NCBI RefSeq assembly: GCF_057098645.1
Contig: NZ_CM169472.1
Direction: 5' to 3' (one strand)
Length of the DNA stretch: 64,000 nucleotides
A program made the position numbers. Shown here piece after piece: positions 24,001 to 27,000 of the stretch. How positions within the stretch are numbered: position 1 is the stretch's first letter; each line of letters starts with the position of its first letter.

Positions 24001-27000
24001 GGTCAGTTCGCCGTTCTCCATTCCGGAAATGTTCTCCGCACGTCTCGGTATTGCCACGATGGCGATATGCCCAATTATGGTTTCTTTTAGCGTGGCAGCG
24101 ATCAATTCGCTAATGAAGCAAGTTGCGCTGCGAGCCGACTTTGATTTTCTGACTCAGGTTTACTCACGGTCCGGTCTTTATGAGGCGCTGAAAAGTCCAT
24201 CGCTGAAACAGACACAACATCTGACTGTCATGCTGCTTGATATCGACTATTTCAAAAGTATTAACGATAACTATGGACATGAATGTGGCGATAAAGTGTT
24301 AAGCGTGTTTGCCCGGCATATTCAGAAGATTGTCGGTGATAAGGGGTTGGTGGCGCGCATGGGCGGCGAAGAATTTGCTGTTGCAGTGCCGTCGGTGAAT
24401 CCTGTCGATGGTCTGCTAATGGCGGAAAAAATCCGTAAAGGCGTTGAACTGCAACCATTCACCTGGCAACAAAAAACGCTTTATCTCACGGTAAGTATTG
24501 GCGTCGGTAGTGGTCGCGCATCGTACCGAACGCTGACCGATGACTTTAATAAATTGATGGTCGAAGCCGATACGTGTCTGTATCGCTCGAAGAAAGATGG
24601 GCGCAACCGTACCAGCACTATGCGTTACGGTGAGGAAGTTGTCTGACATCTTTGTTCATTCAGAGCGATTTAAATGCAATGTGTTCTACCACTTTATGAT
24701 CCAGGAAAAGGCGTTTTTCCTCGATTAAACCATGATCCGCGCCACACTTTTCTCATAAAACTGCTCATTAATCATCAGGAGTTGATCAAAACAGGGGTTC
24801 GTCGTATTAAAGTTTGCTAACCTGTCGTACCAATTCAAACAGGTTGTATGACTAATCAGAAGGGAACCCATTGTGAAAACACTAAATCGTCGCGATTTTC
24901 CCGGTGCACAGTATCCAGAACGTATCATTCAGTTTGGTGAAGGTAACTTCCTGCGCGCCTTTGTTGACTGGCAAATCGATCTCCTGAATGAGCACACCGA
25001 TCTGAATTCTGGCGTGGTCGTTGTTCGTCCGATTGAAACTTCATTCCCGCCGTCACTGAGCACGCAGGATGGTCTGTACACCACCATTATCCGTGGCCTG
25101 AATGAGAAGGGGGAAGCGGTCAGCGACGCGCGTCTGATTCGCTCGGTTAATCGTGAAATCAGCATCTACAGTGAATACGATGAATTCCTGAAACTGGCGC
25201 ACAACCCGGAAATGCGCTTTGTTTTCTCTAACACCACCGAAGCGGGTATCAGCTACCATGCGGGCGATAAATTCGATGACGCGCCAGCGGTAAGTTATCC
25301 CGCAAAACTGACCCGTCTGCTATTCGAGCGTTTTAGCCATTTCAACGGTGCGCTGGATAAAGGTTGGATCATCATCCCGTGTGAGTTGATCGACTACAAT
25401 GGCGACGCGTTGCGTGAACTGGTGCTGCGCTATGCGCAAGAGTGGGCACTGCCAGAAGCATTTATTCAATGGCTGGATCAGGCTAACAGCTTCTGTTCTA
25501 CGCTGGTGGACCGTATCGTTACCGGTTATCCGCGTGATGAAGTAGCTAAACTGGAAGAAGAACTGGGTTATCACGATGGTTTCCTCGACACCGCTGAACA
25601 CTTTTACCTGTTTGTGATTCAGGGACCGAAATCCTTAGCGACCGAGCTGCGTCTGGACAAATATCCGCTCAACGTGCTGATTGTTGACGATATTAAACCG
25701 TATAAAGAACGCAAAGTGGCAATCCTCAACGGTGCACATACCGCGCTGGTGCCGGTGGCGTTCCAGGCAGGGCTGGATACCGTAGGTGAAGCGATGAACG
25801 ATGCTGAAATTTGCGCATTCGTTGAAAAAGCCATCTACGAAGAAATTATTCCGGTTCTGGATTTGCCTCGCGATGAACTGGAGTCTTTCGCCAGTGCAGT
25901 CACCGGGCGTTTCCGTAACCCGTACATCAAGCATCAGCTGCTGTCTATCGCGCTCAACGGTATGACCAAGTTCCGCACCCGCATCCTGCCGCAGCTACTG
26001 GCAGGGCAGAAGGCAAACGGCACACTTCCGGCGCGCCTTACTTTCGCATTAGCGGCATTGATTGCGTTCTATCGCGGTGAGCGTAACGGAGAAACATATC
26101 CGGTACAGGACGATGCACACTGGCTGGAACGTTATCAGCAACTCTGGAGCCAGCATCGTGACCGTGTTATCGGTACCCAGGAACTGGTTGCGATTGTGTT
26201 GGCAGAAAAAGACCACTGGGAGCAGGACCTGACGCAAGTGCCTGGTTTGGTCGAGCAGGTGGCTAATGACCTGGATGCGATTCTCGAAAAAGGGATGCGC
26301 GAAGCTGTACGCCCGTTGTGCTAATACTCTGAACCCGGTTTCGACCGGGTTTCTTATTTCACTATATTAGTTACAACATCCTACAAGCTTACAACATTAA
26401 CAGGTGCCACATGCAGCACCTGTTAATGTTGTAAGCTTGTAGGTAATTTGTAAGTCGTGTCTTGAGAATGTGATCGTAATCACGTTTAATAGGGCGACTT
26501 TTCCACGCCTGAAGATAACCATGATCGTTCGTCCACAACAACACTGGCTGCGCCGTATTTTTGTCTGGCATGGCTCAGTATTATCCAAGATATCCTCGCG
26601 CTTACTACTCAATTTTCTCTTTTCTATCGCTGTTATTTTCATGCTGCCCTGGTACACGCATCTGGGCATCAAATTCACCCTCGCACCGTTCAGCATTCTC
26701 GGTGTCGCCATCGCCATTTTTCTTGGTTTTCGTAATAATGCCGGTTACGCCCGTTACGTTGAAGCGCGAAAACTTTGGGGGCAGTTGATGATTGCCTCAC
26801 GGTCGTTACTGCGCGAGGTAAAAACGACATTGCCGGATTCGGCAAGTGTAAGGGAGTTTGCCCGGCTGCAAATCGCCTTCGCCCACTGTTTACGCATGAC
26901 ATTACGCAAACAGCCACAGGCGGAAGTGCTGGCTCATTATCTCAAGACTGAAGATCTTCAGCGTGTACTGGCTTCGAACTCTCCAGCTAACCGCATCTTG

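What the first reader, a model, noticed from the sequence alone, without database searches (positions are those of the whole stretch)
24819..24845. Inverted repeat AACCTGT-N13-ACAGGTT immediately upstream of uxaB
This 7-bp dyad lies about 28 bp upstream of the GTG start of uxaB, overlapping the likely promoter. It is a plausible operator for the hexuronate regulator ExuR, a GntR-family protein of the kind that binds palindromes.
Basis: inference. Interest (0 to 1): 0.25.

Follow-up and report, generated by a model that had tools for sequence, protein, structure and literature searches.

The report
ExuR operator at the uxaB promoter
The 7-base inverted repeat is real but is a chance feature of the Escherichia lineage; it overlaps the already-known control region of the E. 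coli galacturonate gene uxaB, where the conserved repressor (ExuR) box is an 18-base site covering the -10 element and the transcription start, so the finding is ordinary.

Summary
The dyad AACCTGT-N13-ACAGGTT is at 24819-24845 exactly as described, just upstream of uxaB in an E. coli chromosome. It is not special as a dyad. Perfect 7-base dyads with a spacer of 20 or less occur 2.9 times per kb in this window. Across 76 distinct orthologous promoters its arms show no covariation, and only 4 keep all 7 pairs.

What is conserved is different:
- An extended -10 element, TGcTAACCT (24815-24823). This is the published uxaB -10, and the left arm lies on it.
- An 18-base ExuR/UxuR-type box, AACCTGTCGTACCAATTC (24819-24836). 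It spans -14 to +4 from the listed transcription start (24833).
- A separate invariant block, CAGGTTGTATGACTAATC (24840-24857), which contains the right arm. It shares 10 bases with the conserved exuT operator and may be a second ExuR box.

The strongest ExuR-type box in the window lies 141 bp upstream (24678-24695).

So the ExuR interpretation is right about place and regulator but wrong about the recognition element. Repression of uxaB by ExuR is long known. Low interest.

The parts
24819..24845 (.). The reported dyad AACCTGT-N13-ACAGGTT. It is present exactly, but it is specific to the Escherichia lineage and is not a conserved unit.
   Evidence: exact match. (2.9 such dyads per kb). (no covariation; 4 of 76 distinct sequences keep 7/7 pairs).
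24815..24823 (+). Extended -10 promoter element TGcTAACCT. The invariant positions are T15, G16, T18, A19, A20 and T23. The left arm of the dyad lies on it.
   Evidence: Invariant columns of alignment A1. Published experimentally determined -10 region CTAACCT for uxaB (PMC4447067 Table S3). TGcTAnnnT persists in the four loci that lack box B.
24833..24833 (+). Listed uxaB transcription start (1608744 in U00096.2), 40 nt upstream of the GTG. A start 2-4 nt further upstream would fit the -10 better.
   Evidence: PMC4447067 Table 1. Coordinate conversion validated on lpp. The K-12 control region is identical to the window apart from one SNP at 24802.
24819..24836 (.). Box B, the ExuR/UxuR-type operator AACCTGTCGTACCAATTC, spanning -14 to +4. 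It has one strong half-site (GAATTGGTA on the minus strand, 24828-24836) and a weak half that overlaps the -10.
   Evidence: 12/18 matches to AAATTGGTATACCAATTT. Rank 2 of 63,983 window positions with a matrix built from 16 non-uxaB boxes of 7 genera. Above the 99.9th background percentile at -54/-55 in 75 of 80 orthologous loci. ACCAAT is invariant. The strong half-site is in the top 0.01%.
24840..24857 (.). Block C, CAGGTTGTATGACTAATC, in the 5' UTR (+8 to +25). It contains the right arm of the dyad and is a candidate second ExuR box, 20-21 bp downstream of box B.
   Evidence: G43, T45, T47-A48-T49, A51-C52 and A54 are invariant. GTTGTATGAC is identical to the exuT box core, and that box is conserved in 7 genera. 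Rank 26 of 63,983. Fixed 20/21-bp offset from B in 76 of 80 loci. By half-site score it is weak.
24678..24695 (.). Box A, the distal ExuR-type box AATGTGTTCTACCACTTT, centred 141 bp upstream of box B. It is the best ExuR-type match in the window.
   Evidence: Rank 1 of 63,983 with both matrices. Half-site AAAGTGGTA is in the top 0.003%. Present at -196 to -227 in Escherichia and Citrobacter only; Enterobacter and Lelliottia carry a distal box at -128 to -131 instead.
24782..24800 (.). Nearly invariant block TTGATCAAAACAGGGGTTC upstream of the -10. This is probably where the CRP and FNR sites reported for uxaB lie.
   Evidence: conservation. FNR ChIP peak at about 1608750-1608774, which maps to window 24803-24827, with the FNR site said to overlap the CRP site (PMC3688515). 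TTGAT is a perfect FNR half-site by sequence inspection; the consensus is from my own knowledge.
24873..26324 (+). uxaB coding sequence (483 aa, GTG start), preceded by the Shine-Dalgarno sequence AAGGGA at 24860-24865.
   Evidence: G24863 is invariant.

Best explanation
The region is the promoter and operator of uxaB, and the 7-base dyad is an incidental by-product of it. RNA polymerase uses an extended -10 element, TGcTAACCT (24815-24823), and starts near 24833. The hexuronate repressor ExuR, possibly together with its paralogue UxuR, most likely binds as a dimer to the 18-bp box 24819-24836. It would be anchored by the invariant half-site ACCAAT(T), with the other, weak half lying over the -10 hexamer. 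Bound repressor covers -14 to +4 and blocks RNA polymerase, and galacturonate or glucuronate releases it. The left arm of the dyad is the -10 hexamer plus the weak half of this box. The right arm is the start of a separate invariant block (24840-24857), which may be a second ExuR box two helical turns downstream. A change in the Escherichia/Citrobacter lineage, from AAGTTAT to AACCTGT or AACCTAT in the left half, happened to make that half complementary to the ancestral CAGGTT. What is shown: the positions of the sequence elements, their conservation, the matrix ranks, and the published -10 and start. What is inferred: ExuR binding and the occlusion mechanism.
For: Identity of the locus. Box consensus AAATTGGTATACCAATTT: PMC8092373. 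Independent matrices that exclude uxaB rank 24819-24836 third and second of 63,983 positions. The same position scores above the 99.9th percentile in 75 of 80 orthologous loci. In most genera the site reads AAGTTATyrCACCAATyT, nearly identical to the uxaC operator AAGTTATCACACCAATTT, which is conserved from E. coli to Yersinia. ACCAAT and TG-TAA--T are invariant, while the dyad positions 24821, 24822, 24824 and 24839 vary freely. The dyad shows no covariation: 62.6% of cells paired against 62.4% in shuffles. The published -10 is CTAACCT and the start is 1608744. uxaB is listed as regulated by ExuR and CRP. uxaB is derepressed on glucuronate or in a uxuR deletion (PMC10016265). There is a precedent for two closely spaced inverted repeats over a promoter in the paralogous repressor DgoR (PMC11705089).
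Against: No binding data for ExuR at these coordinates could be read; the 1983, 1986, 2000 and 2011 papers are not held. Box B is a poor palindrome, with 12/18 matches to consensus and only one strong half-site. Conservation of its left half can be explained entirely by the -10 element. The highest-scoring box is the distal site A, so the principal operator could be there. The listed start is 10 nt from the -10 hexamer, which is longer than usual. Genomic SELEX with UxuR alone found only gntP/uxuA (PMC5934670); this says nothing about ExuR, but it shows that UxuR alone does not detectably bind uxaB in vitro.
Confidence: 0.75

Rival explanations
1. The 7-N13-7 dyad is itself the ExuR operator, with each arm contacted by one subunit.
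For: Each arm resembles the outer part of an exuT-type half-site: AACCTGT against AAGTTGT or AACTTGT, and ACAGGTT against ACAAGTT (6/7). N13 equals the N3 of the exuT box plus 10 bp, so the arms face the same side of the helix. The dyad is nearly fixed within E. coli.
Against: The spacing is wrong for a dimer of this family, whose boxes are 17-18 bp. There is no covariation, and only 4 of 76 distinct sequences keep the dyad. The invariant bases lie in the spacer. Neither arm scores in the top 1% as a half-site. The arm-to-arm distance varies by 1 bp among genera.
Confidence: 0.05
2. The principal ExuR operator of uxaB is the distal box A (24678-24695). The proximal box is auxiliary or unused, and repression works by looping or at a distance.
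For: Box A is the best match in the window (19.0 and 16.6 bits, rank 1), with a near-perfect half-site AAAGTGGTA. Distal boxes are enriched in other genera too: 80% of loci exceed the 99.9th percentile, against about 21% expected for a 240-position search.
Against: Box A is centred near -146, too far upstream to repress alone. It is confined to Escherichia and Citrobacter, and the position of distal boxes is not conserved. The proximal box, by contrast, is at a fixed position in 76 of 80 loci.
Confidence: 0.12
3. The dyad forms a hairpin in the RNA (a 5' UTR structure or attenuator) or a cruciform in the DNA.
For: Folded alone, the strand gives -8.1 kcal/mol with a z-score of -2.6.
Against: The listed start (24833), or any start that fits the -10, lies inside the loop, so the mRNA lacks the left arm. 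There are no compensatory changes. There is no terminator-like T-run and no Rfam match.
Confidence: 0.02
4. The dyad is the site of a different regulator that is specific to Escherichia, such as a factor recognising a widely spaced inverted repeat.
For: It is fixed within E. coli. ArcA, FNR and sigma-S RNA polymerase ChIP signals have been reported at uxaB.
Against: It does not fit CRP spacing: TGT-N13-ACA against TGTGA-N6-TCACA (consensus from my own knowledge). Within-species fixation is expected for any 41-mer at 97-99% identity. Nothing singles the dyad out from the 186 others in the window.
Confidence: 0.05

Closest known systems
ExuR/UxuR operators of the E. coli hexuronate regulon (uxaC, exuT, exuR, uxuA, uxuR boxes; consensus AAATTGGTATACCAATTT)
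   Same: Box B (24819-24836) has the same length, the same ACCAATT half-site and the same kind of position, about 54 nt before the start codon, as the uxaC box. In most Enterobacteriaceae it is almost the same sequence as the uxaC box.
   Different: The E. coli version has a degenerate left half (AACCTGTCG) that doubles as the -10 hexamer.
DgoR operator of the E. coli dgo operon (a GntR/FadR sugar-acid repressor; two closely spaced inverted repeats overlapping the promoter; IR1 core TTGTAGTACAA; PMC11705089)
   Same: Same repressor subfamily and the same logic of occluding the promoter. If block C (TTGTATGACTA) is a real box, the architecture is the same, with two boxes about two helical turns apart over the promoter.
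   Different: Binding to the second site at uxaB has not been shown. The box sequences differ, and uxaB has an additional distal box.
FadR-type operators (GntR/FadR subfamily; a dimer on an inverted repeat of about 17 bp with a TGGT...ACCA core)
   Same: One monomer per half-site, with a GT-N3-AC core. Box B has GTCGTAC and block C has GTATGAC (sequence inspection; the general binding mode is described in PMC11705089).
   Different: Different regulator and regulon. The resemblance of the E. coli box B to FadR sites is recalled from memory and was not tested.

Membership tests
ExuR/UxuR (GntR/FadR) operator | A 17-18 bp pseudo-palindrome resembling AAATTGGTATACCAATTT or the exu-regulon boxes | tested here: met
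   24819-24836 matches 12/18. It ranks 3rd and 2nd of 63,983 positions with two matrices that exclude uxaB.
   The spacer is 13 nt. The dyad centre (24832) is 4.5 bp from the box centre (24827.5). Neither arm is in the top 1% as a half-site.
ExuR/UxuR (GntR/FadR) operator | Conserved at the same position in orthologous promoters | tested here: met
   Met for box B: 75 of 80 loci exceed the 99.9th percentile at -54/-55, and ACCAAT is invariant. Not met for the dyad: 4 of 76 sequences keep it, with no covariation.
ExuR/UxuR (GntR/FadR) operator | Lies in or next to the promoter of a hexuronate-pathway gene, so that the bound repressor blocks transcription | tested here: met
   Box B spans -14 to +4 from the listed start and overlaps the published -10, CTAACCT.
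ExuR/UxuR (GntR/FadR) operator | Bound by ExuR and released by galacturonate or glucuronate | not testable with these tools
   Only indirect evidence. uxaB is listed as ExuR-regulated and is induced on glucuronate. The primary operator papers are not held.
Tandem-operator architecture (as for DgoR IR1 and IR2) | A second box of the same type within about two helical turns, also overlapping the promoter region | tested here: inconclusive
   Block C has 10 nt identical to the exuT box, ranks 26 of 63,983, keeps a fixed 20/21-bp offset, and has an invariant core. But its half-site scores are weak, and it lies in the 5' UTR, where RNA-level constraints could equally explain its conservation.
CRP site | TGTGA-N6-TCACA, i.e. 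TGT and ACA separated by 10 nt | tested here: not met
   The dyad has TGT-N13-ACA. The consensus is from my own knowledge.
Intrinsic terminator or structured 5' UTR element | A transcribed stem-loop, with a T-run for a terminator, and pairs maintained in evolution | tested here: not met
   No terminator-like site. The start lies inside the loop. No covariation. No Rfam match.

The most novel reading that the evidence does not exclude
uxaB may be controlled by a multi-operator ExuR architecture that is not catalogued as such. It would comprise box B over the -10 and start, an invariant second box C in the 5' UTR two helical turns downstream (24840-24857), and a movable distal box (A, 24678-24695 in Escherichia), acting together through cooperative binding or looping. 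Alternatively, block C is an unrecognised, deeply conserved 5' UTR element with an RNA-level role.
Probability: 0.25. Interest if true: 0.3.

Novelty: already known. Interest (0 to 1): 0.12.

Why it matters
It matters little beyond annotation. Repression of uxaB by ExuR, its activation by CRP and its control region have been studied since the 1980s, and the regulon has been reconstructed by comparative genomics. The useful outcomes are practical. First, a short perfect dyad near a start codon is a poor predictor of the actual recognition element. Here the conserved determinant sits in the "spacer", and the arms are a -10 hexamer and part of a neighbouring block. Second, the comparative data give precise, testable coordinates for the uxaB -10, the proximal ExuR box, a possible second box and a distal box. 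These could help people who build ExuR-based biosensors or curate regulatory databases.

Tried and rejected
- Reading the primary literature. Suvorova 2011 (PMC3147527), Mata-Gilsinger 1983 (PMC1202228), Bates Utz 2004 (PMC524916), Blanco & Mata-Gilsinger 1986 (by DOI) and Thomason 2015 (PMC4288677) are not held. A full-text search for the exact site sequences found nothing relevant. No supplements are held for the systematic TF survey.
- Independent genome-wide start-site evidence. The Kim 2012 supplements contain no start near uxaB.
- The simple sigma-70 and terminator scan found nothing in 24600-24950. The promoter is of the extended -10 type and fails that scan's two-hexamer rule.
- Alternative promoters. 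I considered TTGATC (24782) plus TATTAA (24805) and rejected it, because TATTAA is not conserved while TGnTAAnnT is. I considered TATGAC (24847) as a -10 and rejected it, because it lacks a conserved -35 or TG and would leave almost no leader.
- Alternative box registers. A box ending at the right arm (24828-24845), and boxes shifted by 1 nt (24818, 24839), score very poorly.
- Reading the dyad as an RNA hairpin or as a CRP site. Both were rejected.
- Simple consensus matching. A match of 12/18 or better is uninformative, with 13 such sites in the window, so matrices and comparative data were used instead.

Full report
**Locus.** The window is E. coli chromosome. Positions 24400-25400 are 100% identical to O145:H28 strains and match 5417 of 5426 complete E. 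coli genomes. The ORF at 24873-26324 (GTG start, 483 aa) is annotated uxaB, tagaturonate reductase. The upstream gene (23228-24646, same strand) is the diguanylate cyclase dgcF. From 24673 to the start codon the window is identical to K-12 MG1655 except for one SNP at 24802, so published K-12 positions transfer directly.

**Observation.** AACCTGT (24819-24825), a 13-nt spacer and ACAGGTT (24839-24845) are present exactly as reported. A dyad of this size is not statistically unusual.
- The window contains 186 perfect inverted repeats with 7-nt arms and a spacer of 0-20, which is 2.9 per kb. Block shuffles give about 88.
- 25% of shuffles of the 226-bp intergenic region contain at least one.

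**What is known about the regulator's sites.** The UxuR box used in a biosensor is the perfect palindrome AAATTGGTATACCAATTT (PMC8092373). UxuR and ExuR are paralogues said to share a DNA motif and to bind each other's sites (PMC11806353). Scanning the K-12 regulon promoters gave these boxes:

| Promoter | Box |
|---|---|
| uxaC | AAGTTATCACACCAATTT |
| exuT | AAAGTTGTATGACAAGTT |
| exuR | AAAGTGGTATAACAAATA |
| uxuA | AAATTGGTCAACCATTGT and GATGTGGTTAACCAATTT |
| uxuR | TATTTGGTTGACCAGTTT |

I then fetched the uxaC-exuT-exuR loci of Enterobacter, Cedecea, Pantoea, Dickeya, Yersinia and Rahnella. The uxaC, exuT and exuR boxes are conserved at corresponding places in nearly all of them, with the exuR box clear in five of the six. 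They are therefore real conserved operators and not chance matches.

**Scoring the uxaB region.**
- A matrix from the six K-12 boxes, with uxaB excluded, ranks 24678-24695 (site A) first and 24819-24836 (site B) third among 63,983 window positions.
- A matrix from 16 distinct boxes of seven genera ranks A first, B second and 24840-24857 (block C) 26th.
- All three lie within 180 bp upstream of uxaB.
- Shifting the register by 1 nt destroys the scores.
- At half-site level, the strong elements are AAAGTGGTA (minus strand, 24687-24695) and GAATTGGTA (minus strand, 24828-24836). Neither arm of the dyad reaches the top 1%.

**Comparative test.** Eighty uxaB loci from distinct Enterobacteriaceae species were retrieved, and 77 proximal control regions were aligned (A1). 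The invariant or nearly invariant columns are:
- TTGATCAAAACAGGG (24782-24796).
- T15 G16 . T18 A19 A20 . . T23, which reads as TGnTAAnnT.
- T25.
- ACCAAT (24829-24834).
- G43 . T45 (G46) T47 A48 T49 (G50) A51 C52 . A54.

The dyad positions 24821, 24822, 24824 and 24839 vary freely. Most genera read AAGTTAT where E. coli has AACCTGT. Counting the seven proposed pairs on A1 gives 62.6% paired cells against 62.4% in shuffles, with a covariation score no better than shuffled or slid controls. Only 4 of 76 distinct sequences keep all seven Watson-Crick pairs, and most keep only 2 or 3. So the dyad is not a conserved unit. In contrast:
- Box B exceeds the 99.9th background percentile at -54/-55 from the start codon in 75 of 80 loci (median 13.3 bits; the 99.99th percentile is 8.2).
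- In most genera box B is nearly the uxaC operator sequence, AAGTTATyrCACCAATyT.
- The four Franconibacter and Siccibacter loci lack ACCAAT yet keep TGcTAnnnT. This separates the promoter constraint from the operator constraint.

**Promoter.**
- PMC4447067 lists an experimentally validated uxaB start at 1608744 (U00096.2) and a -10 region CTAACCT.
- I validated the +1976 coordinate offset on lpp, where the listed start falls on the G that begins the known lpp transcript.
- The uxaB start therefore maps to 24833 and the -10 to 24817-24823, the same element that the invariant columns identify.
- Box B spans -14 to +4. The left arm of the dyad is five bases of the -10 hexamer plus two more, and the right arm is at +7 to +13.
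- A hairpin between the arms (-8.1 kcal/mol in isolation) cannot form in the mRNA, because the left arm is not transcribed. There is no terminator-like site or Rfam match.

**Mechanism.** The best-supported reading is classical promoter occlusion. An ExuR dimer sits on box B, anchored by ACCAATT, with its weak half over the -10, and is released by hexuronate. This is inferred from sequence and from the listing of uxaB as an ExuR and CRP target (PMC3688515 supplement citing Blanco & Mata-Gilsinger 1986, Rodionov 2000 and Mata-Gilsinger 1983), and from its induction on glucuronate (PMC10016265). I could not read any direct binding data.

**The right arm.** It belongs to block C.
- Ten bases of block C, GTTGTATGAC, are identical to the core of the conserved exuT operator.
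- It keeps a 20-21 bp offset from box B in 76 of 80 loci.
- Its otherwise invariant core is altered in exactly the four loci that lack box B.

This fits a second ExuR box. [quoted passage not shown] But block C's matrix and half-site scores are modest, and it lies in the 5' UTR next to the Shine-Dalgarno sequence, so an RNA-level constraint is not excluded. I rate it as a second operator at roughly 35-40%.

**Distal box.** Site A is the strongest ExuR-type site in the window, but it is confined to Escherichia and Citrobacter. Enterobacter and Lelliottia have a good distal box 73-74 bp upstream of B instead. Overall, 80% of loci have a distal hit above the 99.9th percentile, against about 21% expected for a search of that size. 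An auxiliary, possibly looping, operator is plausible but untested.

**Origin of the dyad.** CAGGTT (24840-24845) is ancestral. The left half of box B changed from AAGTTAT to AACCTAT or AACCTGT in the Citrobacter/Escherichia lineage, which by itself produced 5-7 complementary bases. Both arms do resemble the outer flank of an exuT-type half-site (AACTTGT / ACAAGTT).

**Verdict.** It is known biology and of low interest.

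Noticed in passing
window 24782-24800: TTGATCAAAACAGGGGTTC is almost invariant across 76 distinct uxaB promoters. 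It contains a perfect FNR half-site (TTGAT) and a CRP-like half, centred about 41-44 bp upstream of the start. It coincides roughly with a reported FNR ChIP peak and the reported overlapping CRP site. The equally conserved right part, AAAACAGGGTTTCA, is not explained by CRP or FNR symmetry. From memory it resembles a KdgR-type box, which I did not test.
   Followed up: partly
window 24678-24695: AATGTGTTCTACCACTTT is the best ExuR-type box in the whole 64-kb window. It lies 32 nt after the dgcF stop codon and 141 bp upstream of the promoter-proximal box. It is present only in Escherichia and Citrobacter; other genera have a distal box at a different distance.
   Followed up: partly
window 24840-24857: A block in the 5' UTR whose core, TGTATGAC, is invariant across genera. 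It is identical over 10 nt to the exuT operator. It may be a second ExuR box or an RNA-level element.
   Followed up: partly
L065, L072, L077, L079 (Franconibacter/Siccibacter), about -120 to -1 before uxaB: These four loci lack the ACCAAT box entirely, and their downstream block reads TGTCTGAT instead of TGTATGAC. They still keep TTGATCAAAAC and a TGcTAnnnT -10. This suggests ExuR control of uxaB was lost or rewired in that lineage.
   Followed up: no
L086-L089 (Pantoea, Dickeya, Yersinia, Rahnella), positions 1 to about 1200: A mannitol-dehydrogenase-family gene resembling uxaB directly follows uxaC. A stand-alone uxaB with its own promoter and operator therefore appears to be specific to the Enterobacteriaceae.
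   Followed up: no
window 23228-24646: The dgcF (yneF) ORF here is 472 aa, and is annotated as a sensor-domain diguanylate cyclase in O145 strains. K-12 annotates only 315 aa (948 nt), and Klebsiella has 1425 nt. The K-12 gene may be truncated or its start may be mis-set.
   Followed up: no
window 24699-24725: An 11-nt-arm inverted repeat, ATCCAGGAAAA / TTTTCCTCGAT (91% complementary, 5-nt loop), lies between the distal box and the promoter. It has no T-run and was not picked up by the terminator scan.
   Followed up: no
L001 3976-4000 (K-12 exuT upstream): The exuT box AAAGTTGTATGACAAGTT is followed immediately by AAGTTATC, which is the opening of the uxaC-type box. This hints at overlapping or tandem boxes at exuT as well.
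   Followed up: no
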